Origin: an uncultured Bacilli bacterium
GTDB lineage: Bacteria > Bacillota_I > Bacilli_A > RF39 > UBA660
DNA length: 64,000 nt
Direction of reading: 5' to 3'
Assembly: GCA_944372195.1 (NCBI GenBank)
Contig: CALVYK010000001.1
Location: 47,644 to 111,643 of the forward strand
Of this stretch, positions 24,957 to 62,772 are shown piece by piece; positions within the stretch are counted from its first letter, which is position 1, and every line of letters starts with the position of its first letter. Under the pieces are notes generated by a model. It ran no database searches and was not told the origin of the DNA. It worked only from the letters and a program-made list of their open reading frames with translations. The position numbers and the translations under genes are program-made.

Positions 24957-27794
24957 ATGAAAAAAATCACTAACAAATTTATAAATAATACTATATATGC
25001 GCAAAAAGGGTTTACCCTAATAGAATTATTAGGCGTAATAATAATACTAGCAATAATAGCTTTAATAACATATCCAATAGTAGATAAATCAATTCAAAAA
25101 AGTAGAGAAAGTGCTTTGGAAAGAACAATCGAAAACATAGAAAAATCAGCCTATAATTATAGTGTTGAATATGATTTAGGTTATCCAAGAGAACAACAAA
25201 TATTAGAATTAAAAGAATTGGCTAACAAAGGATTTATAAGTGATAAAGAACATATCAATCCAGTAACCAATAATGAATTGGAGGGATGTGTGTTATATAG
25301 ATGGAATGAGGCAACTAGTCAATATTATTTTAAATATGCTGAACCATGCGTAAGAACAGAAATCGCACCAACAATGACATTAGTTTATGATAAAGAAAAT
25401 ATAAATGAAAATGACTGGCTAAATAAAAATATAATGGTAAATATAAATGGGACAGGCACAAAATATTATTATTGTATAGGAAATACAGAATGTGAGCCAA
25501 ACATAGAAGAAAATAAAACAAATGGAACAAAAATAATAATAAATGAAGGAACAAATGTATTGTGTGCCAAAGCAGAAAATGCATATGGCGAAAGTAAAGT
25601 AGTATGTACAGAGGAATTAAATTTAGATAAGACAGCGCCAAATATAGAAGGAATAGGGGATAAAACAGTTCAAAGGAATACGAATGTAGATTTAATAACA
25701 GGAGTAACATATAACGATGCATTATCAGGAATATCAGGCGAATTAATAATCGAGCCAACAATTGTAGATACATCAGTAACTGGAACAAAAGTAGTAAAAT
25801 ATAAAATAACAGATAAAGCAGGAAATACAAAAGAAGCAACAAGAAATATCATAGTGGATGCCCCAGCGCCAACAATAACATACAATTTAGTTGATAGCAG
25901 TTCTGTAAATAGTAATGGCTGGGCAAAGAGTAATTTCTTTGTAAGAGCAATAATCACAGATAATAGCGGAAGTGGAATCAATATTGCCAAAAGTTGTTCA
26001 AGTAATAGTTCAAGTGAATGTACGCCAAGCGCAAGCTTTACATCAATAACAAAAGACTTCTATATTCAAACTGAAGGAAATAATAGAATATGTATCGAAG
26101 TAACAGATAATAATAATAAAACATCAAAAGTATGTAGTAGTACCTACAAACTAGATAAGACATTACCAAATATAGCTGGAGTAGCTGATAAGACAGTACA
26201 AAGAAATACAACAGTAGACTTGAAAGCAGGAGTAACATATAGTGATGCATTATCAGGCATATCAGGAGATTTGATAATAGAACCTTCAAGTATAAGTACA
26301 TCAGTAACAGGAACAAAGACAGTAAAATATAAAGTAACAGATAAAGCGGGAAATACAAGAGAAGTTACAAGAAATATTATTGTCGATGCAGCCGCACCAA
26401 CAATAACATATAAATTAGTAGATAGTAGTTCAATAAATAGTAATGGCTGGGCAAAGAGTAATTTCTTTGTAAGGGCAACGATTACAGATAATAGTGGAAG
26501 TGGAATCAAGACTGCAAAAAGTTGTTCAAGTAATAGTTCGAGTGAATGTACGCCAAGTGCAACATTTACCGGAACAACCAAAGACTTCTATATAGAAGTA
26601 GAAGGAAATAATAGGTTATGTATCGAAGTAACCGATAATAATAATAAAACTTCAAAGCTTTGTAGTGATACCTATAAACTAGATAAGACAGCACCAACAG
26701 CCGGAACTGCAACATTTACAGGTACATTAGGAAGTAATAGTTGGTATACAAGTAATGTAACAGTAAATAAAGTAAATGGAAGCGATAGTTTATCAGGACA
26801 TTCAAGTACAACAAGTAATATAAGCAGTATAACATCAAATACAAGTGGAACAAAAGTAACAATAACAACAACAGATTTAGCCGGAAATAGTTCAACTAGA
26901 AATTATACAATAAAAGTTGATAAAAATAGTCCAACGATAACAGCAAAAAGTGGAACAGTAAGTATCACAGAGGGTGATAGCAATCCAACAAGTAATTACT
27001 TTACAGTAAGTTATGGAATAAGTGGCGGAAGTTTAAGTTGTAGTCCAACTAATACAAGTGGTTTGACATATGGAACAAGAACAGTTACATGTACAGCAAC
27101 TGGAGGTAATGGCAAAAAAGTTACTGCTACAAAACAAATTGAAGTCAATTACGGAGATATAAATTTATCATTTAAATACGTTGGCTCAAAAGCAACTCCA
27201 CAAACTCTTCCAGGAAAAGGAAATGGATACTATGTTCAAAATGTAAGCTGTGAAAATGGAACAGCAAAATGGAGTAATGATTTATGGTCTTTAACTAATG
27301 TTAGTGTTGAAAATGGTAAAATGATGTCATGCGTATTAACATTAGGCGATACTGCTACATATGATGATACAATTGATCAAACTTATTCAAATTTAAAACC
27401 TGAAAATATAGCTTCAGGAGTTCAAGTCGGTGATATTCTCGGAACTGTTGAAACACAAAAAACTTTAATTGCAATCATATATATAAATGGTTCAAAAACA
27501 TACGGCACTTTTTACAATGGTTCTTATTATGTGGCATCTAATAATATTGGACAATGGGGTGGTGCAGTTAGCAATCCAACCGGAAGAACATTAGTTGCTA
27601 CATCATTTATTTCTATGTCAGATTGTGGATTTAGAATTAATGGAGTTCAATATGTTGGCCTTTTTGGATTTGGTAATTTTACTGTAACTAGTGGCAAAAT
27701 AAACAATGTTATATTACAAAATGTTTCTGGTGTTACCAATTCTTTAGGCAATGGTGAAAATGGAACAATTTATATTTATGGGGAAGTACGCTAG
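24957..27794 (+). CDS. giant type-IV-pilin/pseudopilin-like modular protein with tandem Ig-like repeats
   Basis: Class III signal KGFTLIELLGVIIILAIIA; two 528-bp tandem repeats 25623-26150 and 26151-26678; C-terminal cassette. Confidence 0.75.
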   Translation: MKKITNKFINNTIYAQKGFTLIELLGVIIILAIIALITYPIVDKSIQKSRESALERTIENIEKSAYNYSVEYDLGYPREQQILELKELANKGFISDKEHINPVTNNELEGCVLYRWNEATSQYYFKYAEPCVRTEIAPTMTLVYDKENINENDWLNKNIMVNINGTGTKYYYCIGNTECEPNIEENKTNGTKIIINEGTNVLCAKAENAYGESKVVCTEELNLDKTAPNIEGIGDKTVQRNTNVDLITGVTYNDALSGISGELIIEPTIVDTSVTGTKVVKYKITDKAGNTKEATRNIIVDAPAPTITYNLVDSSSVNSNGWAKSNFFVRAIITDNSGSGINIAKSCSSNSSSECTPSASFTSITKDFYIQTEGNNRICIEVTDNNNKTSKVCSSTYKLDKTLPNIAGVADKTVQRNTTVDLKAGVTYSDALSGISGDLIIEPSSISTSVTGTKTVKYKVTDKAGNTREVTRNIIVDAAAPTITYKLVDSSSINSNGWAKSNFFVRATITDNSGSGIKTAKSCSSNSSSECTPSATFTGTTKDFYIEVEGNNRLCIEVTDNNNKTSKLCSDTYKLDKTAPTAGTATFTGTLGSNSWYTSNVTVNKVNGSDSLSGHSSTTSNISSITSNTSGTKVTITTTDLAGNSSTRNYTIKVDKNSPTITAKSGTVSITEGDSNPTSNYFTVSYGISGGSLSCSPTNTSGLTYGTRTVTCTATGGNGKKVTATKQIEVNYGDINLSFKYVGSKATPQTLPGKGNGYYVQNVSCENGTAKWSNDLWSLTNVSVENGKMMSCVLTLGDTATYDDTIDQTYSNLKPENIASGVQVGDILGTVETQKTLIAIIYINGSKTYGTFYNGSYYVASNNIGQWGGAVSNPTGRTLVATSFISMSDCGFRINGVQYVGLFGFGNFTVTSGKINNVILQNVSGVTNSLGNGENGTIYIYGEVR

Positions 27795-28795: not shown

Positions 28796-29314
28796 ATGGC
28801 AAGAGTTAAAGGTGGAACTATTAGTCGTGCAAGACATAAAAAAGTAATGAAACAAGCTAAAGGTTACTTTGGTAGTAAACATAGATTATATCGTACAGCT
28901 AATGAACAAGTAATGCATTCTGGTAAATATGCTTACCGTGATAGAAAACAAAAGAAAAGGGATTTCCGTAAATTATGGATTACAAGAATTAATGCAGCTT
29001 GTAGACAAAATGATATTAGTTATTCTAAATTTATCAATGGTTTAGCTAAGGCAGAAATTGATATTAATCGTAAAATGTTAAGTGAAATAGCTATCGATAA
29101 TCCAGCTGCATTTACAGAATTAGTTAATACTGCTAAAAATGCTTTAGAAGGCAAAGTAGAAAAAACTACTAAAGCTGTAAAAAAAGAAACTAAAGAAGTT
29201 AAAAACGATTTATCTAGTAAGACAGTTGCTGAATTAAGAGAATTAGCTAAAGAAAAAAAAGTTGAGGGATATTCAACAATGAAAAAAGCTGAATTATTAG
29301 AAGCTTTAAAATAA
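28796..29314 (+). CDS. rplT: 50S ribosomal protein L20 with an about 55-aa C-terminal extension
   Basis: L20 core MARVKGG...; tail ...[30 protein letters not shown]. Confidence 0.88.
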
Positions 29315-38716: not shown

Positions 38717-40402
38717 ATGAAAAATATAACCAAAAATTTACAAAAAGATGCTTTTACCTTAGCAGAATTGATAGGTGTTGTAATAATATTAGCAATAATA
38801 GCTTTATTAGCATTTCCGCCTATATTGAATGCAATTCGACAAACAAAAGGGAAAATAAGTGATGCAAGTAAAGAAATATTATATAATGCGACAGGGCTTT
38901 ATGTTAGTGATAACCTTGACTATTATCCTAAGTATAATGGGAATACTTATTGTGTAACTATAAATGAGTTGACTAAAGGTGAATATTTACCTACTAAAGT
39001 ATATGATTCAGTAACTGGTAATGAAATCTCACAAGATAGTATGATAGAAGTAAATGTTGATAATGGTATTTATAATTACAATTTAAATAATGAATGTGAA
39101 GAATATTACAAATATGGCCCATTGACAAAAGTTTTATTAGGACAATATAATGAATCAAATACAACTGGATTAGTAAAAGATAGCTCAAACGAAAATTTAT
39201 ATTATTATACTGGGACAAATGAACAAGTAGCTAATAATTATTTATGGTATGGCGGCCATCAATGGCGAGTATTAGAGTTTAATATAGATGAAAATACTTT
39301 AACTTTAATAACACAACAGCCATTAACAGCAATCCAACCCGCTAGTTCTGCTTGGGAAACCAAAGAAGCATATGAATCAAGCTATATCAATACATGGTTA
39401 AATGATTACTTTTGGAATAGTTTAGATAGTAGCATACAAAATAATATATTAGATAGTATATTTAATGTTGGAATATATACTGATGTCGATGAGATAATGG
39501 CAATTAATAAAGTAGGACTATTAGATGAGGAACAATATAAAAGAGCAGGAAATACAGATTCATTTTTAGATATAAAAGATCATTTTTGGTTAGGTAATAG
39601 ATATGTTTCGTCTTACGTTCGCTGCGTCTACAACGATGGTCGCCTCTTCCGCACTTCCGTTTCGTCTGCGTTTGGCGTGCGTGCAGTTATAAAAATTTCT
39701 GATATAACCATCACTGAAGGGGATGGTACTCTTACAAGCAATTATCAAGTAGCAAATAAAGCAACAGATACTAATAATGTACAAGTAGGAGAATATATCA
39801 ATGTGCCATATAGTGGAAGTGACAGTGCTTGTGGAAGTGATAATATGTGCACATTTAGAGTAGTAAGTAAAGATAGTGATAGTATTAAAGTAGTACTAAA
39901 TGGATTACTTCCAACAGCAAGTGCATATGGAAGTTCAACAACAATAAGTACGAGTCATACAATATATACCCCACTGAATACATTTGTTGAAGGAATAAGT
40001 GACACATATCGATATACCGGAAATAAAATATTCTATATAGGAGATTATCCATCTGGTTCAAATTATAAAGATGTACAAAATGAAATATTGGGAGCAAGTG
40101 TGGGATTACCAACAGTAGGAGAAATGTTTAGTGGCAATGACATTGATTTAAGTACATCAAGTACCAAAACATTTGTTGATATAAATACAATCGAAAATCC
40201 AACTGTATCAAATTACTATTGGACAATGAATGGATATAGTTCGTCTCTCGTTCGCAGCGTCCACAGCAATGGCCACCTCAGCGACAATAGTCCTTCGGTT
40301 GCGTTCGGCGTGCGTGCAGTTATATATTTGAAGTCAGGGACTTCAGCCATAACCTTCACAGGGGGAGATGGAAAAGCTCAAAAGCCTTATACTTTAGATT
40401 AA
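38717..40402 (+). CDS. pilin-like (prepilin N-terminal) secreted protein with two GC-rich SVRCV/GVRAVI (DUF1566-like) repeats, inserted in the dcw cluster
   Basis: N-terminus AFTLAELIGVVIILAIIALLAFPP; own promoter TTGCAA...TGTATAAT; repeats at 39601-39682 and 40241-40323. Confidence 0.7.
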   Translation: MKNITKNLQKDAFTLAELIGVVIILAIIALLAFPPILNAIRQTKGKISDASKEILYNATGLYVSDNLDYYPKYNGNTYCVTINELTKGEYLPTKVYDSVTGNEISQDSMIEVNVDNGIYNYNLNNECEEYYKYGPLTKVLLGQYNESNTTGLVKDSSNENLYYYTGTNEQVANNYLWYGGHQWRVLEFNIDENTLTLITQQPLTAIQPASSAWETKEAYESSYINTWLNDYFWNSLDSSIQNNILDSIFNVGIYTDVDEIMAINKVGLLDEEQYKRAGNTDSFLDIKDHFWLGNRYVSSYVRCVYNDGRLFRTSVSSAFGVRAVIKISDITITEGDGTLTSNYQVANKATDTNNVQVGEYINVPYSGSDSACGSDNMCTFRVVSKDSDSIKVVLNGLLPTASAYGSSTTISTSHTIYTPLNTFVEGISDTYRYTGNKIFYIGDYPSGSNYKDVQNEILGASVGLPTVGEMFSGNDIDLSTSSTKTFVDINTIENPTVSNYYWTMNGYSSSLVRSVHSNGHLSDNSPSVAFGVRAVIYLKSGTSAITFTGGDGKAQKPYTLD

Positions 40403-45681: not shown

Positions 45682-46470
45682 ATGTATGCTGCAGTTAAAA
45701 AACAATTCTTAATAGCTATTTTAGAGCCAATATTAGATAAAAAAATTGAAGATTTAGAACTGTTAAATCCAAATTTAGTTCAAGATTATTTTAGATTAAG
45801 AGGGCAAAGATTAGATTTGTTAGTAAAAACAAAAGATGAGGTAATTAATGTTGAATTGAATACTAATTATAGTGAAGAAATAAAAATAAGAAATTTACAT
45901 TACATTTTTAAGTTAGCAAGCCTTAATACAGAAAGAGGGAATAAATACAAAGTAGGTTATTCGATAATTCAAGTAAATCTAAATTTTTATAATAGTAAAT
46001 ACGAAAAAAGTATCTACACATTATATGATAAAATAAATAAAATAGAATTAACCGATTATATAAAAATATATAATGTAGGTATAGACAAATACATAAAAAA
46101 CTATTATAATAATGATAAGAAGTTTACTAAAGGTGAAGAAGCATTAATCATGCTAGATTTGGGTAAACAAGGTTTAGAAGAATTATCAGAAAAGAGTGAT
46201 ATAGTGAATAATTTTAAAGAAGAAGTAATAAAAGCTAACAATGATGAGTTTATAGTAGATTGGATAAGTCGTGAAGAGGAGCAAAAGCAATATGAAGAAG
46301 TAATGTATGAAAAAGGACTTAATCAAGGATTATCTGAAGGAAAACAAGAAGGAATTGAACAGACTAAAATTGATGTGGCAAAAGAAATGTTAGAATTAAA
46401 TATGGATTTAGAAACAATAAGTAAAGTAACTAAATTAGCTAAAGAACAAATTGAAAGTTTAAAAAATTAA
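45682..46470 (+). CDS. Rpn/YhgA-like PD-(D/E)XK recombination-promoting nuclease / putative transposase family protein
   Basis: RLDLLVK...INVELN core and the charged C-terminal repeat region typical of Rpn-family proteins. Confidence 0.55.
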   Translation: MYAAVKKQFLIAILEPILDKKIEDLELLNPNLVQDYFRLRGQRLDLLVKTKDEVINVELNTNYSEEIKIRNLHYIFKLASLNTERGNKYKVGYSIIQVNLNFYNSKYEKSIYTLYDKINKIELTDYIKIYNVGIDKYIKNYYNNDKKFTKGEEALIMLDLGKQGLEELSEKSDIVNNFKEEVIKANNDEFIVDWISREEEQKQYEEVMYEKGLNQGLSEGKQEGIEQTKIDVAKEMLELNMDLETISKVTKLAKEQIESLKN

Positions 46471-46505
46471 CAAAAAATTAAAAAAACAAAAAAATTTCAT
46501 TTTAT

Positions 46506-46573
46506 TGCAATTTTTTTTATTTTCTTGCAGGAATTCGATATAGCCTTGGCTAATATAACTAGTAGGGAGGTAA
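46506..46573 (+). repeat. 65-bp direct repeat B (native leader of the bacteriocin ABC transporter)
   Basis: TGCAATTTTTTTTattttCTTGCAGGAA...GGGAGGTA immediately before GTG 46578. Confidence 0.6.
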
Positions 46574-46577
46574 AAAA

Positions 46578-48614
46578 GTGTTTAAAAGAATTAAGCAAGA
46601 AGGTTTTAAAGATTGTGGTCCAAGTAGTTTACTTACTATAATTAAACATTACAAAGGTTATATTGACATAAATGATTTAAAAGAAATGTGTAAAACAGAT
46701 AAATCTGGAACAACTGCCTATCATTTAATTGAAGCTAGTAAAAAACTAGGATTTGAAAGTTATGGTATTAGATGTAATTTAAACGATTTAAAAAAAGAAA
46801 ACGTAATACTTCCTTGTATTGCTCATGTAATTATAAATAACTCCTACAATCATTATGTTGTAATTGAAAAAATAGATTTTAAGAAAAAAAAGCTATTAAT
46901 TAACGATCCAATTGGAAAACGTAAATTTTGCTCGTATGAAGAATTTGATAAAATATTTAATAATATTTTGATTTATTTATACCCTATAAAAAAAATAATA
47001 AATATCCCTAATAATTCATATATAAAATTTTTTCAAGAAATAATAAAATCCTCAACAAATCAATTGGTTCAAGTTATTGTTATATCTATTTTTATTACAA
47101 TATTTTCTATTATCTCATCATTTTATATGCAATACATGATCGATAATATTATGTTTTCTAAGCAAAAAATTATACTTATTTTTATAATCTTTTTAATTGT
47201 TTATTTACTTAAAATCATATCAGATTTTTTTAGAAATAAAATTTTGATTATAATTAATCAAAAAGTTGATTTTAATCTTACTTTTAATACTTTTAAACAA
47301 ATTATTAACCTTCCTTATCGTTACTATAAAAATAATACAACTGGTGAAATAATATCAAAAATAAATGATCTAGAAGCTGTAAGAGAAGTGATTTCTAAAG
47401 TAGCTTTGAGTTTATTTATTGATTTGCCTTTAACAATTTTATCTTTAATAATTATGTATATGTTAAGTGATACTTTATTTTTCATAAGTTTAATTATTAT
47501 GCTTTTATATTTATTTATAATTATTATATTTCAAAATAAATTTAATAATTTAATAGATGAAGCAACACTAGATAAAGCATCTGTTACATCATACATGGTT
47601 GAATCTATTAATGGCTATGAAACAATAAAAGGATGTAATATGGAAGGTAAAATTATTCATAATTTTGAAGATAAATATGCTACTTATTCTAATAAAATAA
47701 ATGAATTAGATAGTTGTTACAATTATCAATATTTGCTAAAAGAATTAATAAATAATATAGGTTTTATAATTATTATATTAGTTGGAATATTTTTAGTAAT
47801 GGATAATAAAATAACACTTGGTTCATTATTGTCATTTAATTCTTTACTTATTTATTTTTTAAGTCCTATTAGAAACATTATTGATTTAGATAATAATTTA
47901 AGACAAGCTAAAATATCTATTAAAAAAATATTATATTTATATTATAAAAAAAATAATTTTCAATTTGAACAAGTTATAGGAGATATAGAATTTAAAAATT
48001 TAACTTATAGTTTTGATGACGTAAATAATGTTTTATCTAATATTAATTTAAAAATTAAAAATAAAAGTAAAGTTATGGTATTAGGAAGTAGTGGTAGTGG
48101 GAAAAGTACTTTATTTAAAATTTTAAAACAAAATTATGAAATTAAAAGAGATAAAGTATATATTAATGGTGTTGATATTAACGATTACAAATTAAATAAT
48201 ATTGTTTATGTATCACAAAATGAAATATTATTTTCTGATACAATTGAAAATAATATTGGTAACGATATTTATAAAGTATCTAAAATATGTTTGGTTGATG
48301 AAATAGTAAAAAAAACACAATTGGGTTATAAAACTTTGATTGAAGAAAATGGTTTTAATTTATCGGGTGGTGAGAAACAAAGAATTATTTTAAGTAGGGC
48401 TTTAGCTAATCCTTTTGATATTTTAATAATAGACGAAGGATTAAGTCAGGTTGATACAAATATGGAAAGAGTAATTATAAAAAATATTTTAAAAGAATAT
48501 CAAGATAAAACAATAATTTTTATATCACATAGATTAGATAATATTGATTTATTTAATCAAGTTATAAAAATAGAGAAAGGAAAAATAATTGATGATTTAT
48601 CCAAAAATATATAA
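46578..48614 (+). CDS. peptidase C39 bacteriocin-processing/secretion ABC transporter (GTG start)
   Basis: C39 motif KDCGPSSLLTI; six TM helices; Walker A GSSGSGKST; signature LSGGEKQR. Confidence 0.88.
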   Translation: MFKRIKQEGFKDCGPSSLLTIIKHYKGYIDINDLKEMCKTDKSGTTAYHLIEASKKLGFESYGIRCNLNDLKKENVILPCIAHVIINNSYNHYVVIEKIDFKKKKLLINDPIGKRKFCSYEEFDKIFNNILIYLYPIKKIINIPNNSYIKFFQEIIKSSTNQLVQVIVISIFITIFSIISSFYMQYMIDNIMFSKQKIILIFIIFLIVYLLKIISDFFRNKILIIINQKVDFNLTFNTFKQIINLPYRYYKNNTTGEIISKINDLEAVREVISKVALSLFIDLPLTILSLIIMYMLSDTLFFISLIIMLLYLFIIIIFQNKFNNLIDEATLDKASVTSYMVESINGYETIKGCNMEGKIIHNFEDKYATYSNKINELDSCYNYQYLLKELINNIGFIIIILVGIFLVMDNKITLGSLLSFNSLLIYFLSPIRNIIDLDNNLRQAKISIKKILYLYYKKNNFQFEQVIGDIEFKNLTYSFDDVNNVLSNINLKIKNKSKVMVLGSSGSGKSTLFKILKQNYEIKRDKVYINGVDINDYKLNNIVYVSQNEILFSDTIENNIGNDIYKVSKICLVDEIVKKTQLGYKTLIEENGFNLSGGEKQRIILSRALANPFDILIIDEGLSQVDTNMERVIIKNILKEYQDKTIIFISHRLDNIDLFNQVIKIEKGKIIDDLSKNI

Positions 48615-55653: not shown

Positions 55654-56619
55654 ATGCAAGATTTTAAATATCTTAATTTGTTAGAAAGAAGAAAACTAGC
55701 TATAGAAGAACTAGTTAAATATTATTCTGAATTGCGAAAATATGAGTATCACAAGGGAGAAAAATTAAATTTTATTGAACTTAGAAAAAAATTGCATTTT
55801 ATAATATCTTTGATTTTAATAACAGATCAATTGATATCAAAAGAAAAAATTCATATTGTAAATGATTTGCATTATTCAAATAGTGACAAGCCTAAAATTT
55901 ATGCTTGCACTCACATTGGTGGAAACGATATACAAAGGACTTTTCAAGTAATTAAACAACCAGCTTACTTAATGTTAGGCGATCCAGGAATACTATATCG
56001 AAAAATGATTTATTTAGGTCTTAAATTAAATGGTGTAATACCATTAGAAACGGCTGATAAAGAAGATCGAAAAATAGCTTATAATAGAGCTGTCGAATTG
56101 TTAGAAAATGGCGGAAATTTATTAATATATCCTGAAGGTGCTTGGAATGTTTCACCTAATTTGTTGGTAATGAAAATTTTTAATGGTACAGTTCGCATGG
56201 CTCAACAAACTGGTGCAGAAATAATTCCTATTGCAGTTGAGCAATATGATAATGATTTTTATTTTAATATAGGTAAAAATTATACAATTTCTAAAGATAC
56301 AACTAAATCAATAAAAGAATTAAATGATGAATTAAGGGATAAATTGGTATCATTAAAATGGGATATTATTAGTACTCAACCAGAATTAAAAAGAGATGAA
56401 ATTGCAGATAATTATTTAGAAAAATTTCAAAGTGAAATTGTTGAAAGATGTAATTATGGTTATGGATTTTCTTTAGAAGATGCGTTAAGAGAAAGTTTTC
56501 ACGATAAAAATATTACATCAGAAGAAGAAGTTTTCTCTTTTATGAAAACTTTAAAAATTGATAAAAATAATGCATTTTTACTTAGAAATAAAAAGAATTT
56601 GTTAAAAAAAGATAATTAA
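55654..56619 (+). CDS. lysophospholipid acyltransferase (PlsC family)
   Basis: HIGGND (Hx4D) and YPEGAW motifs. Confidence 0.65.
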   Translation: MQDFKYLNLLERRKLAIEELVKYYSELRKYEYHKGEKLNFIELRKKLHFIISLILITDQLISKEKIHIVNDLHYSNSDKPKIYACTHIGGNDIQRTFQVIKQPAYLMLGDPGILYRKMIYLGLKLNGVIPLETADKEDRKIAYNRAVELLENGGNLLIYPEGAWNVSPNLLVMKIFNGTVRMAQQTGAEIIPIAVEQYDNDFYFNIGKNYTISKDTTKSIKELNDELRDKLVSLKWDIISTQPELKRDEIADNYLEKFQSEIVERCNYGYGFSLEDALRESFHDKNITSEEEVFSFMKTLKIDKNNAFLLRNKKNLLKKDN

Positions 56620-56630
56620 GGAGAAATAAA

Positions 56631-58547
56631 ATGGAAGCATTATTATTGCCAATTGTTGGTTTATTAATTATATTAACTCTTACATTTTTGTTTTATTCTA
56701 AAAAACATATTCATAATGAAGAAGTAAATATTTATTCGAAACTTTTGATATTAAATATTATATTTATCATTGTAGGTATAATTGCTTTCGCTATAGCAAA
56801 ATTGGCAAATGATATGTTTTTAGTAAAAATATTTCAAAAGATATATATGAGTATATTGATTTTATTGAATTATTTTTCTCTTAAATATTGTTTTATGATA
56901 TTCAGCGTTAAAAAAACAAAAATAATTAATTTAACTCTCAATATTTTAACTGCATTAGCAATTTTATTAGTTTTTGCTTTACCGCTAAATGTAATATACT
57001 ATGATAATGTATTAGATGGTGAAGGATTGTCTTACGATATTGCTATAATTTATTCGGTAATAACATTTTTAAATTTTGTTATTTTAAGTTTATATTTGTT
57101 TTTCAAAAAAAATCGTATAACAAAATTGATTCCATTTTTAATATTAATTTTGTTATATATTATTGGATTTGTTTTAAGAGGATTTTATCGAGAATTGATT
57201 TTTGAAGGATTTTTTTACTCTTATATTTTACTCATTATGTATCATACGATAGAAAATCCTGATGTTAAAATAATTAATCAATTGAATTTGGCAAAAGATC
57301 GAGCTGAAAAAGCTAATCATGCTAAAAGTGATTTCTTATCTAGTATGTCACATGAAATAAGAACTCCTTTAAATGTTATTGTTGGATTAAGTGAAGATTT
57401 ACTCAGTTATAATAATTTGCCAAGTGAATTTTCAGAGGACTTAAATGATATTCAAAATGCTTCATCAGCATTATTAGAGATAGTTGGTAATATTTTAGAT
57501 TTAAATAAAATAGAAGATGGAAAAGTTGATGTGATTGATCAAACTTATGATATTAGGCTAGAAATTAATAAAATTATAAAATTAGTATCAACCAGAATTG
57601 GTGAAAAACCAATTACATTAAATGTAAATATTGATGATAATGTTCCATTTGAGTTAATAGGTGATATTGGTCATGTGAAATCAATTTTGAATAATTTATT
57701 AACTAATGCAATTAAATATACCGAAAAGGGTAATGTAGAATTAAATGTAAGTTGTAAAAATGATAATAATGTTTGTAATTTAACTATGTCTGTTAAGGAT
57801 ACAGGTAAAGGTATTAAGGAAGAGAACCTAAGTAAATTGTTTACTAAATTTAATCGTCTTGACGAAGAAAGGAATACAACTATTGAAGGTACAGGATTAG
57901 GATTAGTAATAACTAAATCTTTAGTTGAATTAATGAATGGTAAAATAGATGTTAAAAGTCAATTTGGTCAAGGATCTATATTTACAGTTTGGTTGCCTCA
58001 AAAAATTAAATCTTTTAAGAAAAGTTCATCAGACCCTGTTAATAATTTAAATAATGATTATAATATTAATTTTGGCCATAAAAAAATTTTGGTTGTTGAT
58101 GACAATAAATTAAATATTAAAGTTGCTAGAAAGGCATTATCGACTTTTAATTTTGATATTGATGAATGTTATGATGGATTAGAATGCTTAGAAAAAGCTA
58201 ATAATAATCAATATGATTTAATTTTTATGGATATAATGATGCCTAACATGAATGGTGAGCAAACTCTTGCCGAGCTAAAGAAAAATCCAAATTTCAATAC
58301 TCCTGTTATTGCTTTGACAGCTGATGCTATTTCTGGTTCAAAAGAAAAATATATTTCACAAGGCTTTGTTGATTATATAGCTAAACCATTTAGTAGAAAT
58401 CAAATAAAAGAAAAGTTAAATGAGATTTTTAAAAATGATCAAAATTTATCAAATCAAGAATCAGCAACATACGTATTTGATTCTAAAAATAATGAAGAAT
58501 ATATAATTACAGATGGTAAAAAAGAGGATATAACAAAAAAAATATAA
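56631..58547 (+). CDS. hybrid sensor histidine kinase / response regulator with a 6-TM N-terminal sensor
   Basis: HisKA H-box SHEIRTPLN; HATPase_c; C-terminal REC (VVDDN...DLIFMDIMMP). Confidence 0.85.
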   Translation: MEALLLPIVGLLIILTLTFLFYSKKHIHNEEVNIYSKLLILNIIFIIVGIIAFAIAKLANDMFLVKIFQKIYMSILILLNYFSLKYCFMIFSVKKTKIINLTLNILTALAILLVFALPLNVIYYDNVLDGEGLSYDIAIIYSVITFLNFVILSLYLFFKKNRITKLIPFLILILLYIIGFVLRGFYRELIFEGFFYSYILLIMYHTIENPDVKIINQLNLAKDRAEKANHAKSDFLSSMSHEIRTPLNVIVGLSEDLLSYNNLPSEFSEDLNDIQNASSALLEIVGNILDLNKIEDGKVDVIDQTYDIRLEINKIIKLVSTRIGEKPITLNVNIDDNVPFELIGDIGHVKSILNNLLTNAIKYTEKGNVELNVSCKNDNNVCNLTMSVKDTGKGIKEENLSKLFTKFNRLDEERNTTIEGTGLGLVITKSLVELMNGKIDVKSQFGQGSIFTVWLPQKIKSFKKSSSDPVNNLNNDYNINFGHKKILVVDDNKLNIKVARKALSTFNFDIDECYDGLECLEKANNNQYDLIFMDIMMPNMNGEQTLAELKKNPNFNTPVIALTADAISGSKEKYISQGFVDYIAKPFSRNQIKEKLNEIFKNDQNLSNQESATYVFDSKNNEEYIITDGKKEDITKKI

Positions 58548-58560
58548 CTTTATATGTGAG

Positions 58561-59178
58561 TTATATTTTTCTATATAATCCTATTGCTTTGCCTAAAATA
58601 GTGACATTATCCATAATAAATGGTTCCATAGTATCATTTTCAGGTTGTAATCTAAAATGATCTTTTTCTTTATAAAATGTTTTTAATGTTACTTCGTTTT
58701 CATCAGTCATGGCTACAACTATTTCTCCGTTATTTGCAGTATTTTGCCTTTCAACAATAACAATATCTCCATCTAATATTCCGGCGTTAATCATACTTTC
58801 ACCACTTACTAATAATGTAAATACATCTTTGTTTTTAGGTATTAAATATGATGGTAAACTAAAGTATTCATCTGGCCTTTCGATTACCTCAATAGGATTA
58901 CCAGCTGTAATTTTACCAAGTAGTGGAACTTCAGTAATTAATTCATTTTTAATTTCATATTCGTTATCAACTAAAATTTCAATAGTCCTATTTTTGCTTT
59001 CTTCTTTTTTAATATATCCTTTTTTTTCTAAATTATTTAAATGAACTTGAACAGTAGCTGTACTTGATAAGTTCATTTCTTGACATAATTCTCTAACTGT
59101 TGGCGCATATCCATGGCTAACAACATATTTTTTTATAATATCTAGCATTTTTTCTTGCTGATTAGTTAATTTTTCCAA
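58561..59178 (-). CDS. lexA: LexA repressor
   Basis: N-terminal winged HTH; S24 peptidase Ser (GESM) / Lys dyad. Confidence 0.9.
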   Translation of the reverse strand: MEKLTNQQEKMLDIIKKYVVSHGYAPTVRELCQEMNLSSTATVQVHLNNLEKKGYIKKEESKNRTIEILVDNEYEIKNELITEVPLLGKITAGNPIEVIERPDEYFSLPSYLIPKNKDVFTLLVSGESMINAGILDGDIVIVERQNTANNGEIVVAMTDENEVTLKTFYKEKDHFRLQPENDTMEPFIMDNVTILGKAIGLYRKI

Positions 59179-59267
59179 GTTGAGTACCTCCTTTTAACTT
59201 TCTATTAACATCTTAACATATAATTTTACATTTGTCAAACAAATTTTCGTTTTTTTATAAAAATGTG

Positions 59268-59296
59268 TTGACACGAATATTTGTTCGTGATAGAAT
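59268..59296 (+). promoter_or_regulatory. sigmaA promoter with embedded LexA (Cheo/SOS) box
   Basis: TTGACA (59268-73), CGAATATTTGTTCG (59274-87) in the spacer, TAGAAT (59291-6). Confidence 0.75.
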
Positions 59297-59319
59297 TAAA
59301 TCATGAAAGGAATGGTGCT

Positions 59320-59502
59320 ATGGAATATTATACAGTTAAAGATCTGCAATTGTTAACAGGATATAGCAAGAAAAAAATTTGTTCAATTATCAAAAAATTA
59401 AACAAAGAGAAATTAGAACATTATAAAAAATATAATCCTGTTATATTTGATGACAAAATTGAAAAAATTTATTTTATTAAGAGAATGGAGTTTGAATTAT
59501 GA
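59320..59502 (+). CDS. small HTH-like protein, putatively LexA-regulated
   Basis: Divergent from lexA; RBS AAAGGA; the ORF-track start at 59281 lies inside the promoter. Confidence 0.5.
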   Translation: MEYYTVKDLQLLTGYSKKKICSIIKKLNKEKLEHYKKYNPVIFDDKIEKIYFIKRMEFEL

Positions 59503-59639
59503 AAGAAATGTTAAAAAATAAAACTATTATTGCCTTTGTTGTTATTATGTTAGGAATAACTATTATTAGTACGCCTAGTACCAAGTTAGAACAAACTAAA
59601 GATATTACAGAAGATTATGTATCTTACAATTTAAAATAG
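59499..59639 (+). CDS. 46-aa single-TM peptide MKEMLKNKTIIAFVVIMLGITIISTPSTKLEQTKDITEDYVSYNLK
   Basis: ATGA overlap with the upstream ORF; single TM helix. Confidence 0.4.
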   Translation: MKEMLKNKTIIAFVVIMLGITIISTPSTKLEQTKDITEDYVSYNLK

Positions 59640-59709
59640 TGAAAACTATTTTTTTTATTGACCATTTATTAAAAAAAATGTATAATTGTATTATAATTGG
59701 AGGGATACA

Positions 59710-61476
59710 ATGCTAGGTAATATAATTGGGGTAGTAGAAAATCAAGTTTTATTAAAATTAGCTATCGATCTAAACAAATTTGAAAATTTAATTAACATTC
59801 ATGTTATTATGGATGATGGAACTAGGAAAATAGTAGGGGAAATAATCGATATAAAGGATAATATTGCCTATATAAACTTATTAGGGGAAATAATTGATAA
59901 TAAGTTTGTATTTGGAGTTATGGTAAAACCATCTTTTAATTCAGTTGTAAAACTTATTTCTAAAGAAAAAATACCAATGATAGTTGGGGTTGAGAATTAT
60001 CAAGAAAATATTGATATTTATTTGGGGAATAGTCCAATCTATCAAGGGGTAAAAATAGGAGCTAATATTAATAAATTTTTCAGTAATCATTTTGCTATTT
60101 TAGGCTCTACTGGTTCTGGTAAATCATGTGGTGTTGCACGAATAATTCAAAATATATTTGATAAGAAAAGATTTATTCCTTATCGCGCCAGTTTATTTAT
60201 ATTTGATGCATATGGTGAATATCACAATGCATTTAAAAATATAGGTGGCGAAGAAATATCTTTTAAATCATACACAACAAATTTAAACTTTAGTGAAACT
60301 GAAGTATTAAGAATACCAACATGGTTATTAGGTGTTGACGATTTAGCACTTTTATTAAATGCTGATAATTTGTCACAATTGCCAATTATTGAAAAAGCTT
60401 TAAAATTAGTAAATATTTTTACTAGTAATGGTGAAAATGTTATCAAATTGAAAAATGATATTATTGCTAGAGCTCTTTTAGATATTTTATCAAGTGGTAA
60501 TTCACCAGCCCAAATAAGAGATCAAATATTTTCTATTTTATCATATTATAATACGCAAGAATTAAATTTGGAAACTCCTATTTTTCAGCCTGGATATACT
60601 AGGCCACTAAAACAATGCCTTTTAATTGATGCAACTGGTAAAATAAGGGAAATGGAGTTATTAACCAATTTCATTCAAAAATTTATTCAAAACGATTTAA
60701 ACATAACTATTCCTGATGAAGAATGTATGTATACACTAGAAGATGTTGAAAAAGCGCTAGATTTTGCTCTTATTAGTGAGGGAACTTTAAATAGTGAAAA
60801 GATATATGAAGATTCAAACACTTTAAAGGTAAGATTACACTCTTTGGTTAATAGTGAGGCAAGAAAGTATTTTGAATATGATAAATTTGTTACAAGAGAG
60901 CAATATATTAAAGAGTTATTAACTGCACCAAATGGTAGAAAAGCTCAAATAATTAATTTTAATATTAACTATATCGATGATAGATTAGCCAAAAGCATAA
61001 CTAAAATTTATTCAAAATTATTATTTGATTATGCTAAAGAATTAAGAAATAGGGCAACAATGCCATTTCATATTATTTTAGAAGAAGCTCATAGATATGT
61101 TCAAAATGATAATGACATAAATTTACTAGGGTACAATATATTTGATCGTATAACAAAAGAAGGTAGAAAATATGGTGTAATGTTAGGCCTTATTAGCCAA
61201 AGACCTAGTGAATTATCAGAAACTTCATTATCACAATGTAATAATTTCTTAATATTTAAAATGTTACATCCTGTTGATGTTGAGTATATTCAAAAAATGG
61301 TTCCTAATGTAACCAGTGAAATTATAAAAAGATTAAGAATTTTACAACCAGGAAATTGTATAGCTTTTGGTACTGCATTTAAAGTGCCAGTAATGATAAA
61401 AATGGATATGCCTAACCCTATGCCATCTAGCAGTAGCTGTGATATTAGCAATACTTGGTTTATTGAAAAAAAATAG
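59710..61476 (+). CDS. HerA-like (DUF87) P-loop ATPase/helicase with N-terminal HAS-barrel
   Basis: Walker A GSTGSGKS, Walker B ILEEAHRY; start at MLGNIIGVV after RBS GGAGGGA. Confidence 0.7.
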   Translation: MLGNIIGVVENQVLLKLAIDLNKFENLINIHVIMDDGTRKIVGEIIDIKDNIAYINLLGEIIDNKFVFGVMVKPSFNSVVKLISKEKIPMIVGVENYQENIDIYLGNSPIYQGVKIGANINKFFSNHFAILGSTGSGKSCGVARIIQNIFDKKRFIPYRASLFIFDAYGEYHNAFKNIGGEEISFKSYTTNLNFSETEVLRIPTWLLGVDDLALLLNADNLSQLPIIEKALKLVNIFTSNGENVIKLKNDIIARALLDILSSGNSPAQIRDQIFSILSYYNTQELNLETPIFQPGYTRPLKQCLLIDATGKIREMELLTNFIQKFIQNDLNITIPDEECMYTLEDVEKALDFALISEGTLNSEKIYEDSNTLKVRLHSLVNSEARKYFEYDKFVTREQYIKELLTAPNGRKAQIINFNINYIDDRLAKSITKIYSKLLFDYAKELRNRATMPFHIILEEAHRYVQNDNDINLLGYNIFDRITKEGRKYGVMLGLISQRPSELSETSLSQCNNFLIFKMLHPVDVEYIQKMVPNVTSEIIKRLRILQPGNCIAFGTAFKVPVMIKMDMPNPMPSSSSCDISNTWFIEKK

Positions 61477-61492
61477 CGATTTTTCGCTATTT

Positions 61493-61699
61493 TTAACTTA
61501 AATATTGTTTAATTTGACTTAGATTTTTATTAGTAATTTTCGCTATTGTTTTTAAATCTAAAGAGCAATTGATCATATTATTTATTAATTTAGTCATTGT
61601 CTCTTCTTTACCAATATTGATTCCCTCCTTATAATAATATAATAACTCATTTATCTCATTTTCTGTTAAATGAGCTTTTTTTAATATAAACTTTTCCAT
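61493..61699 (-). CDS. small putative HTH protein
   Basis: 68 aa, helix-rich, no recognisable domain. Confidence 0.35.
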   Translation of the reverse strand: MEKFILKKAHLTENEINELLYYYKEGINIGKEETMTKLINNMINCSLDLKTIAKITNKNLSQIKQYLS

Positions 61700-61851
61700 A
61701 ATATTCCTCCTTCATATCTAATTATAAATAAATTGAAAAATTAATCAAATAACCAATTTTATAAATTGATTTTAAAAAAACTCTAATTTTAATAATTGAT
61801 TAGAGTAATTTTAAATATTATAATAAATTTATTCTTATTTGTTAAACTAAT

Positions 61852-62772
61852 TTACAAATTTGTATAATCTCCTTGAAAAATGTTATTTTTATTCATATAT
61901 TTGTCTATACCATTTAAAACATCTATTTTTTTTAAAGTCCATTTTGGTTCTATTAAATCTTCTTTTTTAGGATCACCAGTTAATCGATGGATAACTATCT
62001 CTGGTCTTAAATATTTTAATTGTTCACAAACAATTTCAATATATTGATCTTTAGTTAATAAAGGAAATGGATTTTTTTGATAAACTTTTTCTAATTTTGT
62101 ATTTTTTAAAATATGCAACATATGAATTTTAATTCCTTGAATGTCCAATTTATTTAAAAATTTTACTGTTTCGATCATCATTTCTTTTGTTTCATAAGGC
62201 AATCCATTAATTATGTGAACTACGACATTGATGTTTTTTTCTCGTAATTTGTTAACCATATCGACAAAACATTCTAAACTATGACCTCGATTTATTAATA
62301 AAGCTGTTTTTTCGTGAATAGTTTGCAAACCTAGTTCAATTGTAAGAAATGTCTTTTTATTTAATTCACTTAAATATTCTAAACATTCATTTGAAATTGA
62401 ATCTGGTCTCGTAGCAATAGCTAGTCCTATTACATCATATAATTTTAAAATTGTTTCATATTTTTCTTTTAAAATGTTTAAAGGGGCATATGTGTTAGTC
62501 CTTGCTTGAAAATACCCAATGTATTTGCCTTGCCATTTACTCATTAATTTCTTTCCTTTGTTAAATTGAGTAATTAAGTCATCATTTTTATTTCCAGCAT
62601 ATTCGCCACTTCCTAAGTCGCTACAATAAATACATCCGCCACTTTTTAAATGGGGACAACTAAAACCGGCATTTAAACTTATCTTAATAATTTTTTCATT
62701 AAATTTATTTTTATAATAATAATTTAATGTATGATATCTTTTATTGTCTAAAGAATATTTAAATTTCATCAA
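61852..62772 (-). CDS. TIGR01212-family radical SAM protein
   Basis: Atypical cluster CPHLKSGGCIYC; elongator/YhcC-like fold. Confidence 0.75.
   Translation of the reverse strand: MMKFKYSLDNKRYHTLNYYYKNKFNEKIIKISLNAGFSCPHLKSGGCIYCSDLGSGEYAGNKNDDLITQFNKGKKLMSKWQGKYIGYFQARTNTYAPLNILKEKYETILKLYDVIGLAIATRPDSISNECLEYLSELNKKTFLTIELGLQTIHEKTALLINRGHSLECFVDMVNKLREKNINVVVHIINGLPYETKEMMIETVKFLNKLDIQGIKIHMLHILKNTKLEKVYQKNPFPLLTKDQYIEIVCEQLKYLRPEIVIHRLTGDPKKEDLIEPKWTLKKIDVLNGIDKYMNKNNIFQGDYTNL

What the first reader, a model, noticed from the sequence alone, without database searches (positions are those of the whole stretch)
58561..61476. LexA with a divergent SOS-box promoter driving a small HTH protein plus 46-aa TM peptide, followed by an orphan HerA-like ATPase
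The promoter has TTGACA, 17 nt and TAGAAT, and carries CGAATATTTGTTCG in the spacer. That matches the Firmicute LexA consensus CGAAC-N4-GTTCG with one mismatch.

It drives a 61-aa HTH-like protein (59320-59502) and, by ATGA overlap, a 46-aa single-TM peptide (59499-59639). The layout mirrors the divergent SOS cell-division inhibitors YneA and SosA of Bacillus and Staphylococcus, but the sequences are unrelated to them.

Immediately downstream is a 589-aa HerA-like HAS-barrel ATPase with no NurA, Sir2 or other partner. Such orphans are known mainly from archaeal repair and from bacterial defence systems.
Basis: partly seen in the sequence, partly recalled or inferred. Interest (0 to 1): 0.6.

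Follow-up and report, generated by a model that had tools for sequence, protein, structure and literature searches.

The report
SOS-controlled membrane peptide beside lexA
An uncultured, very AT-rich gut bacterium has a DNA-damage repressor gene (lexA) back-to-back with a repressor-controlled promoter; that promoter drives a conserved 46-residue membrane peptide that looks like a new, very small cell-division brake, while the neighbouring HerA-type ATPase is an unrelated, separately promoted core gene.

Summary
LexA (58561-59178, -) is a full-score TIGR00498 LexA. It faces a near-consensus promoter (TTGACA-17-TAGAAT, with TG) whose spacer holds CGAATATTTGTTCG, the only such site in 64 kb (0.07 expected). 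A weaker box overlaps lexA's own -35.

The promoter drives orf60 (59320-59502) and, through an ATGA overlap, orf46 (59499-59639).

Comparison of 18 peptide variants from related uncultured gut Bacilli (LexA 70-100% identical) shows that the peptide always lies divergent from lexA behind an SOS-box promoter. This holds wherever upstream sequence exists. orf60 is present in 11 variants and absent in 7. The peptide is therefore the constant payload. It is a positional, regulatory and topological analogue of YneA, SosA and SidA, with no LysM domain and no family match.

orf60 belongs to a narrow family with a small phage-type HTH-like fold; the evidence for that fold is weak.

The HerA-like ATPase is real but is not part of the unit:
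- It has its own promoter.
- It sits next to lexA only in the two closest species of 80.
- It carries no SOS box elsewhere.
- It usually follows housekeeping genes (a HAD phosphatase and a GTPase).

Its closest annotated relatives are SIR2-HerA defence pairs, but no SIR2 or NurA partner is nearby in any of the 80 loci.

Verdict: a new member of a known kind, of moderate interest.

The parts
58561..59178 (-). lexA, 205 aa, TTG start preceded by a GGAGG ribosome-binding site
   Evidence: TIGR00498 at E=2.5e-68, above the equivalog cutoff. Pfam LexA_DNA_bind and Peptidase_S24. Ala92-Gly93, Ser128 and Lys166 present. Relatives 70-100% identical occupy the same position.
59210..59238 (-). lexA promoter: -35 TTGACA at 59238..59233, 17-nt spacer, -10 TAAGAT ending at 59210, with TG
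   Evidence: Promoter scan, 10 of 12 matches. The TGTCAAACA core is invariant in 10 aligned lineages.
59236..59249 (.). Weaker SOS box 2 (on the - strand CGAAAATTTGTTTG; 2 mismatches), overlapping the lexA -35. Predicted site of lexA autoregulation.
   Evidence: Conserved as C(G/A)AA-N6-TT(C/T)G in relatives. Not above chance as a stand-alone motif: 3 sites found against 3.0 expected at 2 mismatches.
59268..59296 (+). SOS-controlled promoter: -35 TTGACA at 59268-59273, TG at 59288-59289, -10 TAGAAT at 59291-59296
   Evidence: Promoter scan, 11 of 12 matches with TG. ATTGACAC...TTCGTGATA is invariant in 10 lineages.
59274..59287 (.). SOS box 1, CGAATATTTGTTCG, filling the promoter spacer directly after the -35
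   Evidence: The only hit in 64 kb, 0.07 expected. The same position holds in every related locus. Three loci (L106, L108, L112) carry a perfect CGAAC-N4-GTTCG.
59320..59502 (+). orf60: 60-aa basic protein, optional first gene of the unit, with a small phage-type HTH-like fold
   Evidence: Homologues at 65-95% identity, always next to lexA. AF2 model at pLDDT 82.7. BFVD matches to small phage HTH proteins, TM 0.71-0.81, E 6e-3 to 7e-2. phrog_989 at 5.4e-6. Only 22 cluster representatives among 1.84e9 proteins. Third-codon positions change most.
59499..59639 (+). orf46: 46-aa single-pass membrane peptide. Lys-rich N-terminus MKEMLKNK, transmembrane segment 9-27, acidic 19-aa tail ending YNLK. 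The constant payload of the unit.
   Evidence: ATGA overlap with orf60. Hydropathy and charge bias. 18 variants, all divergent from lexA behind an SOS-box promoter. No Pfam, NCBIfam, PADLOC or PHROG match.
59636..59656 (+). Weak terminator-like element: AUAGU-GAAA-ACUAU hairpin followed by U8. It may stop only part of the transcription.
   Evidence: Read from the sequence. Not found by the terminator scan, which needs 3 G-C pairs. The MFE fold of the region pairs these bases differently and is not significantly stable, z=-1.86.
59658..59686 (+). Separate promoter of the HerA-like gene: TTGACC, 17-nt spacer, TATAAT
   Evidence: Promoter scan, 11 of 12 matches. Conserved in L001 and L002.
59710..61476 (+). 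HerA-like ATPase, 588 aa. Adjacent to the SOS unit but not part of it. Walker A GSTGSGKS at 132, Walker B ILEEAH at 456.
   Evidence: Orthologues at 63-95% identity in 80 species, with variable housekeeping neighbours. No SOS box upstream in the other 78 loci.

Best explanation
**Regulation.** lexA and a short SOS operon are transcribed back-to-back from a 141-bp control region with two LexA operators.
- The strong operator fills the spacer of a near-consensus extended -10 promoter, so bound LexA should block RNA polymerase.
- The weaker operator overlaps the lexA -35, giving autoregulation.
- After DNA damage, RecA-stimulated self-cleavage of LexA (Ala92-Gly93, Ser128/Lys166) should release both promoters.

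**Payload.** The conserved payload is a 43-48-residue membrane peptide with its N-terminus inside and its C-terminus outside. I predict it is the DNA-damage cell-division inhibitor of this lineage. It would work like YneA, SosA or SidA: it inserts into the membrane and blocks late divisome or septal wall synthesis until it is removed, probably through its conserved extracellular tail. In about 60% of the variants a small phage-type HTH-like protein (orf60) is translated just upstream by coupling; it is an accessory.

**HerA-like gene.** It has its own promoter and is a vertically inherited core gene of the clade. Its position next to the SOS unit is a rearrangement specific to this lineage.

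**What is shown and what is inferred.**
- Shown: the sequence elements, their conservation, and the gene linkage.
- Inferred: LexA binding, induction by damage, membrane topology, and inhibition of division.
For: **Control region**
- LexA is a full-length equivalog with catalytic and cleavage residues.
- The box is unique in the window, 0.07 expected, and sits in the promoter spacer.
- In 10 aligned lineages the -35, both half-sites and the TG-extended -10 are invariant while the six central box bases vary.

**Linkage to the peptide**
- A search that started from the peptide alone recovered 12 metagenome loci. All 11 that have upstream sequence carry a divergent lexA (70-98% identity) and a box. 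Three of these boxes are perfect CGAAC-N4-GTTCG.
- The peptide stands alone behind the SOS promoter in 7 of 18 variants.
- Genes downstream of the peptide differ between lineages: HerA, rhodanese plus BipA, SNase, or transketolase.

**Peptide properties**
- It has a 19-residue hydrophobic core, a +1/+2 N-terminus and a 0 to -3 tail in most variants.
- The N-terminus, the transmembrane segment, a membrane-proximal KLE and a C-terminal Y-x-x-x-N-L-K are conserved.
- Codon changes follow position 3 > 1 > 2.

**Organism**
- The window encodes wall-synthesis and division genes: MraY, MurG, MurB, a FtsQ-type POTRA protein, FtsA and FtsZ.

**Literature**
- Gram-positive SOS division inhibitors are typically single-pass membrane proteins encoded divergently next to lexA, despite unrelated sequences (PMC6851548).
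- The transmembrane segment of YneA targets FtsW, and this may be a common mechanism (PMC13396833).
Against: - There are no functional data, and the organism is uncultured.
- The peptide has no LysM or other wall-binding domain, which YneA needs for activity (PMC13396833).
- Its extracellular tail is only about 17-24 residues.
- The middle of that tail is poorly conserved.
- Small SOS-induced membrane peptides can instead be pore-forming or depolarising toxins (TisB or DinQ type; from my own knowledge).
- The role of orf60 and the reason for its translational coupling are unexplained.
- No recA or other SOS genes lie in the window, so a working SOS circuit could not be confirmed.
- FtsW is not in the window.
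Confidence: 0.55

Rival explanations
1. The peptide is an SOS-induced membrane-damaging toxin of the TisB/DinQ type. After DNA damage it depolarises the membrane and drives dormancy or persistence rather than specifically blocking the divisome.
For: - It is very small (43-48 aa) and is mostly one hydrophobic helix with no recognisable extracellular domain.
- It is under LexA-type control.
- TisB and DinQ of E. coli are LexA-controlled small membrane peptides (my own knowledge).
Against: - No antisense or neighbouring small-RNA gene is detectable: there are no Rfam hits, and in some loci a convergent SNase gene begins 13 nt after the stop codon.
- The peptide has a conserved extracellular end motif and membrane-proximal residues. 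That is more typical of SosA-like inhibitors, whose tail is needed for activity and turnover (PMC6851548).
- The position divergent from lexA is the hallmark of Gram-positive division inhibitors.
Confidence: 0.2
2. orf60 and orf46 form an antitoxin-toxin-like pair or a domesticated phage/ICE regulatory cassette (an Xis/Cro-like HTH plus a small membrane protein) that happens to sit beside lexA. orf60 would be the key DNA-binding effector.
For: - A small basic protein is followed by a 4-nt overlapping second gene, which is the classic toxin-antitoxin layout.
- orf60 has weak excisionase/AlpA-type and phage HTH similarities.
- Its family is narrow, with 22 representatives.
Against: - orf60 is missing from 7 of 18 variants, while the peptide and the LexA-controlled promoter remain.
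- No integrase or other mobile-element genes flank the unit.
- The FtsK-lexA-peptide order is vertically conserved.
- tblastn finds no match in 50,697 phage records.
- LexA here is a full cellular LexA, not a phage repressor.
Confidence: 0.1
3. The HerA-like ATPase is a functional third gene of the SOS operon: a damage-induced repair translocase. This matches the reader's implied grouping.
For: - Only a weak hairpin and a U-run separate orf46 from the ATPase, and no canonical terminator was found. Some read-through is therefore possible in this species and in L001/L002.
- HerA-family proteins act in DNA end resection in archaea (established knowledge).
Against: - The adjacency occurs in only 2 of 80 related species loci, plus the window itself.
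- The other 78 loci have no CGAA-N6-TTCG box upstream of the gene.
- The ATPase has its own 11-of-12 promoter.
- Elsewhere the SOS unit is followed by unrelated genes.
Confidence: 0.08

Closest known systems
SosA of Staphylococcus aureus (SOS-induced division inhibitor)
   Same: - Encoded divergently next to lexA under a LexA-controlled promoter.
- One N-terminal transmembrane segment (about residues 10-30 in SosA, 9-27 here) with an extracellular C-terminus.
- Conservation is highest near the membrane and at the extreme C-terminus.
- No LysM domain (PMC6851548).
   Different: - 46 aa against 77 aa, and an extracellular part of about 19 residues against about 47.
- No detectable sequence similarity to any curated family.
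- Often preceded by a translationally coupled 60-aa protein.
- Activity is untested.
YneA of Bacillus subtilis and Listeria (yneA-yneB-ynzC operon divergent from lexA)
   Same: - Divergent from lexA behind a Cheo-type box CGAAC-N4-GTTCG.
- A single transmembrane helix, which in YneA contacts FtsW (PMC13396833).
- Part of a small multi-gene SOS operon.
   Different: - YneA carries an extracellular LysM domain that is essential for its activity. The peptide here has none (no Pfam match).
- The partner genes differ: yneB and ynzC follow yneA, whereas orf60 precedes the peptide here.
SidA and DidA of Caulobacter crescentus
   Same: Very small single-pass membrane peptides induced by DNA damage that act on the late divisome (FtsW/FtsN) (PMC4211646, listed).
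   Different: - They come from Alphaproteobacteria and are not linked to lexA.
- DidA is SOS-independent.
- The sequences are unrelated.
TisB and DinQ of E. coli (LexA-controlled type I toxins)
   Same: Small hydrophobic peptides behind a LexA box (my own knowledge).
   Different: - They are controlled by antisense small RNAs and have no extracellular tail.
- No such RNA is found here, and the tail is conserved.
HerA of SIR2-HerA anti-phage systems (closest annotated relatives of the ATPase)
   Same: - 32-35% identity over 91-99% of the length to HerA proteins on Lactobacillus, Enterococcus and Listeria plasmids.
- Best PADLOC model is HerA at 6e-116.
- Walker A and B motifs are intact.
   Different: - In those plasmids a SIR2 gene lies immediately upstream and overlaps HerA.
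- Here, and in all 80 related species, there is no SIR2, NurA or other recurrent nuclease neighbour.
- The gene is conserved at 63-95% identity among housekeeping genes.

Membership tests
LexA repressor (TIGR00498) | N-terminal LexA winged-helix DNA-binding domain plus C-terminal S24 peptidase domain, scoring above the equivalog cutoff | tested here: met
   229.7 bits against a cutoff of 110.95. PF01726 at 1.5e-22 and PF00717 at 9.2e-33.
LexA repressor (TIGR00498) | Ala-Gly self-cleavage site and Ser/Lys catalytic dyad | tested here: met
   A92-G93, S128 (in GESM) and K166 (in TLK). Assignment is by motif, from established LexA knowledge.
LexA repressor (TIGR00498) | Binds its operator and is cleaved on RecA activation | not testable with these tools
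   Needs EMSA and a cleavage assay. recA is not in the window.
Firmicute SOS (Cheo) box | 14-bp palindrome CGAAC-N4-GTTCG overlapping a promoter | tested here: met
   One mismatch; the only hit in 64 kb, 0.07 expected; it lies in the spacer of an 11-of-12 promoter.
Firmicute SOS (Cheo) box | Half-sites conserved at the orthologous position in relatives | tested here: met
   CGAA and TTCG are invariant in 9 of 10 aligned lineages while the centre varies. Perfect consensus in L106, L108 and L112.
SOS-induced single-pass membrane division inhibitors (functional class: YneA, SosA, ChiZ, DivS, SidA) | Gene under a LexA-type operator, typically divergent from lexA | tested here: met
   True of all 18 peptide variants that have upstream sequence.
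SOS-induced single-pass membrane division inhibitors (functional class: YneA, SosA, ChiZ, DivS, SidA) | Single transmembrane helix with an extracellular C-terminal part | tested here: inconclusive
   One 19-residue hydrophobic window, mean Kyte-Doolittle score about 2.1. The N-terminus is positive and the tail is acidic, so an N-in/C-out orientation is inferred from the positive-inside rule. No dedicated topology predictor was run.
SOS-induced single-pass membrane division inhibitors (functional class: YneA, SosA, ChiZ, DivS, SidA) | Blocks septation when induced | not testable with these tools
   Needs expression and microscopy.
YneA family | Extracellular LysM domain and sequence similarity to YneA | tested here: not met
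   No Pfam or NCBIfam hit at E<=0.1. The tail is only 19 aa.
SosA family | Sequence similarity to staphylococcal SosA (77 aa) | not tested
   No SosA sequence was at hand. No curated family matched. The length differs.
Excisionase / AlpA / MerR-type small HTH (for orf60) | Match to a curated HTH family, or a significant fold match | tested here: inconclusive
   No Pfam family. ICEBs1 Xis at E=0.08, phrog excisionase at 0.025, phrog_989 (unknown function) at 5.4e-6. PDB Foldseek gives E>2 for all hits. BFVD small phage HTH proteins match with TM 0.71-0.81 at E 6e-3 to 7e-2. Two of 20 relatives weakly match AlpA.
HerA / DUF87 ATPases | HerA central ATPase domain with Walker A and B motifs | tested here: met
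   PF01935 at 2.7e-22, PADLOC HerA at 6e-116, PDB 9c1m at 1.7e-45 and 4d2i at 3.9e-29. GSTGSGKS and ILEEAH are present.
HerA-NurA repair pair | Adjacent NurA nuclease gene | tested here: not met
   No recurrent nuclease cluster lies next to the gene in 80 loci. The neighbours are a HAD phosphatase, a GTPase, a D-Ala-D-Ala carboxypeptidase, FeoB-like, MnmL, and a UvrD-like helicase plus a two-component system. The rest of the genome was not searched.
SIR2-HerA defence system | SIR2 gene immediately upstream in the same operon | tested here: not met
   SIR2 is present in the three closest plasmid relatives and absent from the window and from all 80 related loci.
Type I toxin (TisB/DinQ-like) | Cognate antisense or adjacent small RNA | tested here: inconclusive
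   No Rfam match in 58400-62000. Antisense promoter-like sites are no more frequent than in shuffles. A novel RNA cannot be excluded.

The most novel reading that the evidence does not exclude
Two readings go beyond the ordinary, and neither is excluded.

(a) The 588-aa ATPase may be a SIR2-type HerA that lost, or never had, an effector partner. It would then have become a partner-less housekeeping DNA translocase kept by a whole clade of small-genome gut Bacilli: 80 species at 63-95% identity, in chromosomes of 1.3-1.5 Mb. In this one lineage it has been placed directly behind the SOS unit.

(b) The peptide may be the smallest Firmicute SOS division inhibitor. It would act purely through its transmembrane helix and a tail of about 19 residues, with a translationally coupled phage-derived DNA-binding partner in some lineages.

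The probability given is for at least (a) being true in the sense of a core function that needs no partner.
Probability: 0.25. Interest if true: 0.6.

Novelty: new member of a known kind. Interest (0 to 1): 0.4.

Why it matters
If the peptide is a division inhibitor, it adds a new and very compact family to the SOS checkpoint proteins. These proteins are notoriously unrelated in sequence and are usually recognised only by their position next to lexA.

At 43-48 residues and with no wall-binding domain, it would be a minimal tool for asking which parts of such inhibitors are needed to stop septal wall synthesis. The likely targets are FtsW or its partners.

It would also give the first handle on DNA-damage responses in an abundant but uncultured group of reduced-genome human and animal gut Bacilli. 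That is relevant to how these organisms respond to fluoroquinolones and other genotoxic drugs.

Separately, a partner-less HerA ATPase conserved as a core gene would show that this family, best known from archaeal repair and from anti-phage systems, can have a housekeeping role in bacteria.

Tried and rejected
**Ideas tested and rejected**
- HerA as part of the SOS unit. Synteny over 80 species rejects it, as does the absence of SOS boxes upstream in 0.9 Mb of related loci.
- HerA in a defence island or with a NurA or SIR2 partner. Neighbour clustering and Pfam on the recurrent clusters found only housekeeping genes.
- A phage or ICE origin of the cassette. tblastn of orf60 against 50,697 phage records found nothing. 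No integrase flanks the unit.
- The 73-aa ORF from TTG 59281. It was rejected in favour of the ATG at 59320, which has a ribosome-binding site and matches the conserved MEYYT start of the homologues.
- The 64-aa versions of orf60 in databases. They are artefacts of reading TGA as Trp. Long ORFs in the window are intact under code 11.

**Searches that gave nothing useful**
- Foldseek of the orf60 model against the PDB gave nothing significant, with E>2 throughout.
- A profile of the orf60 family against PDB sequences gave only spurious low-complexity hits.
- Pfam on 20 family members gave only 2 weak AlpA hits.
- Rfam found no known RNA in 58400-62000.
- The terminator scan found none. The RNA fold of the orf46-HerA spacer is not significant, z=-1.86.
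- A literature search for bacterial orphan HerA proteins returned nothing useful.
- Box 2 alone is not statistically distinguishable from chance at 2 mismatches. It is accepted only because of its conserved position over the lexA -35.


Full report
**What is in the sequence.** The window is 24.7% G+C and comes from an uncultured gut member of the Bacilli/Mycoplasmatota, close to Candidatus Faecisoma. Long ORFs are intact under code 11.

- lexA lies on the minus strand at 58561-59178. It encodes a 205-aa protein that matches the LexA equivalog model TIGR00498 at E=2.5e-68 (229.7 bits, cutoff 110.95). It carries both the LexA DNA-binding domain and the S24 peptidase domain.
- The Ala92-Gly93 cleavage site, Ser128 and Lys166 are present.
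- The 141-bp region up to the next gene holds two facing promoter-like sites. On the minus strand, TTGACA-17-TAAGAT (59238..59210) serves lexA. On the plus strand, TTGACA-17-TAGAAT with a TG extension lies at 59268-59296.
- The 14-mer CGAATATTTGTTCG (59274-59287) fills the plus-strand spacer directly after the -35. It is the only match with one mismatch or fewer to CGAAC-N4-GTTCG in 64 kb, against 0.07 expected. It is also the only CGAA-N6-TTCG site.
- A second site with two mismatches at 59236-59249 overlaps the lexA -35. Taken alone it is not above chance.
- Downstream are orf60 (59320-59502) and orf46 (59499-59639). They overlap by ATGA and each has a Shine-Dalgarno-like sequence.

**Are the small ORFs genes, and what stays linked to lexA?** orf60 has homologues at 65-95% identity. 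Each one I looked up lies in the order FtsK, then lexA on the opposite strand, then orf60, then a 45-46-aa ORF.

Starting from LexA homologues of 82-92% identity, the same divergent arrangement recurs. In three lineages (L092/L093, L096, L097), however, the SOS promoter drives the membrane peptide directly, with no orf60.

An independent scan of metagenome contigs used only the peptide alignment as its query. It returned 12 loci. All 11 with upstream sequence have a divergent lexA (70-98% identity) and a box in the same promoter position. Four more variants lack orf60 (L105, L106, L108/L109, L113). Three boxes are perfect CGAAC-N4-GTTCG.

In total I counted 18 distinct peptide variants, 11 with orf60 and 7 without.

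In an alignment of 10 control regions, several elements are invariant: ATTGACAC, the CGAA and TTCG half-sites (one exception), the following TGATA, and the TGTCAAACA core of the lexA promoter. The six central bases of the box vary freely. That is the pattern expected of an operator read through its half-sites.

Both ORFs change most at third codon positions.

**The peptide.** All variants share these features:
- a Lys-rich start (M-K/I-E-M-L-K-S/N-K);
- a hydrophobic stretch of about 19 residues (positions 9-27, mean Kyte-Doolittle score about 2.1);
- a membrane-proximal S/T-x-x-KLE motif;
- a variable acidic linker;
- a fairly conserved end (Y-x-x-Y/M-N-L/I-K).

The charge distribution predicts the N-terminus inside and the C-terminus outside; this is an inference. 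There is no match in Pfam, NCBIfam, PADLOC or PHROGs, so it is not a YneA-family protein and has no LysM domain.

The same window encodes wall-synthesis and divisome genes: MraY, MurG, MurB, a FtsQ-type POTRA protein, FtsA and FtsZ. The organism is therefore walled and divides with FtsZ.

The literature describes exactly this signature for Gram-positive SOS division inhibitors. They are single-pass membrane proteins, encoded divergently next to lexA, and unrelated in sequence between genera (PMC6851548). Recent work shows that the transmembrane helix of YneA binds FtsW, and it suggests that FtsW is a common target (PMC13396833).

The best-supported reading is therefore that orf46 is this lineage's SOS-induced division inhibitor. 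That makes it a new and very small member of a known functional class. The main rival is a TisB/DinQ-like depolarising toxin. I found no associated RNA, and the conserved extracellular end argues mildly against the rival, but only an experiment can decide.

**orf60.** The family is narrow. A profile search of 1.84 billion cluster representatives found 22 members. No Pfam family matches, and only 2 of 20 relatives touch AlpA weakly.

The AlphaFold model is fairly confident (pLDDT 82.7). Its order of elements is strand, helix, long helix, strand, helix.

Against the PDB nothing is significant, although the top hits are nearly all winged-helix or HTH domains, including Tn916 Xis at rank 41. Against predicted viral structures the best hits are 56-146-aa phage proteins, some annotated as HTH, with TM 0.71-0.81 and E of 6e-3 to 7e-2. 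phrog_989, of unknown function, matches at 5.4e-6, and an excisionase PHROG matches at 0.025.

I therefore call it a probable small phage-type HTH protein, not a proven one. Because it is absent from 7 of 18 variants, it is an accessory and not the core of the unit. Its function is unknown. It could be a co-factor, a second-tier regulator or a modulator of the peptide.

**The HerA-like ATPase.** The gene (59710-61476, 588 aa) is a genuine HerA-family ATPase, supported by:
- Pfam DUF87 at 2.7e-22 and PADLOC HerA at 6e-116;
- solved HerA chains at up to 1.7e-45, and Sulfolobus HerA 4d2i at 3.9e-29;
- intact Walker A and B motifs.

It has its own 11-of-12 promoter-like site (59658-59686). This follows a weak hairpin and a U8 run.

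Orthologues at 63-95% identity were found in 80 species-level genomes. lexA, orf60 and orf46 lie upstream only in the two closest of them, L001 and L002.

In 43 loci the upstream genes are a HAD phosphatase and a GTPase, with a median gap of 53 nt before the ATPase. From their motifs I read these as YqeG-like and YqeH-like. Pfam supports HAD/PGP_phosphatase and MMR_HSR1/RsgA. In a nearer group the upstream genes are a UvrD-like helicase, a response regulator and a histidine kinase.

No CGAA-N6-TTCG site precedes the gene in the other 78 loci, which total 0.9 Mb.

The closest annotated relatives, at 32-35% identity on Lactobacillus, Enterococcus and Listeria plasmids, all have a SIR2 gene overlapping upstream. 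No SIR2, NurA or other recurrent nuclease lies nearby in any of the 80 loci.

So the ATPase is truly partner-less locally and is conserved like a housekeeping gene. It is not part of the SOS unit and is not in a defence island. Some read-through from the SOS promoter cannot be excluded in this species.

**Comparison, novelty and score.** The LexA, operator and divergent-inhibitor layout is textbook for Firmicutes. What is new is the peptide family itself, its very small size, and the optional coupled orf60. Hence the rating 'new member of a known kind'.

The most novel readings not excluded are these:
- a partner-less, domesticated SIR2-type HerA serving a core function across a whole clade;
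- a minimal inhibitor that works through its transmembrane helix alone.

I set interest at 0.4. The regulatory conclusion is solid and the functional prediction can be tested directly, but a specialist would not be very surprised.

Noticed in passing
window 61493-61699 (-): A 68-aa ORF lies between the HerA-like gene and mnmL. It is conserved at 49-91% identity in 15 related species at the same position. It weakly resembles the C-terminal end of Rpn-family (PD-(D/E)XK) proteins: TIGR01784 at E=0.0022 and a transposase PHROG at 0.03. It may be a stand-alone remnant, or a small protein of the Rpn C-terminal type.
   Followed up: partly
window 59710-61476 and loci L003-L080: The HerA-like ATPase is conserved at 63-95% identity in 80 species of small-genome gut Bacilli (complete MAG chromosomes of 1.3-1.5 Mb). 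In 43 loci it directly follows HAD-phosphatase and GTPase genes. Its nearest annotated relatives are the HerA subunits of plasmid SIR2-HerA systems.
   Followed up: partly
window 55654-58547: An acyltransferase gene and a hybrid histidine kinase/receiver gene lie between ftsK and lexA in this species only. In L002 and most relatives ftsK abuts lexA directly.
   Followed up: partly
window 28796-29314 (+): Ribosomal protein L20 carries a C-terminal extension that matches the Rho_N (Rho termination factor N-terminal) domain at E=1.4e-10. This is an unusual fusion.
   Followed up: no
window 45682-48614 (+): A PD-(D/E)XK 'transposase'-family (PDDEXK_2) gene sits directly after ftsZ. It is followed by a C39-peptidase ABC exporter of the bacteriocin-export type.
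   Followed up: no
window 24957-27794 (+): A 945-aa protein has an N-terminal prepilin-type methylation motif and a bacterial Ig-like domain. This would be a giant pilin-like surface protein. Pilin-like genes also recur near the HerA gene in related loci (cluster c5).
   Followed up: no
proteins P0121, P0125, P0131, P0152; locus L098: Several database versions of orf60 are 64-73 aa and end in ...ELWKKC. The gene callers read its TGA stop as Trp (genetic code 4), presumably because these MAGs are classed with Mycoplasmatota. Under code 11 the stop creates the conserved ATGA overlap with the peptide gene.
   Followed up: yes
window 38717-40402 (+): A 561-aa ORF with only a weak DUF6273 match sits inside the wall/division gene cluster, between mraY and murG. 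An ftsW/spoVE-type gene is often found at that position, but no FtsW was detected in the window.
   Followed up: no
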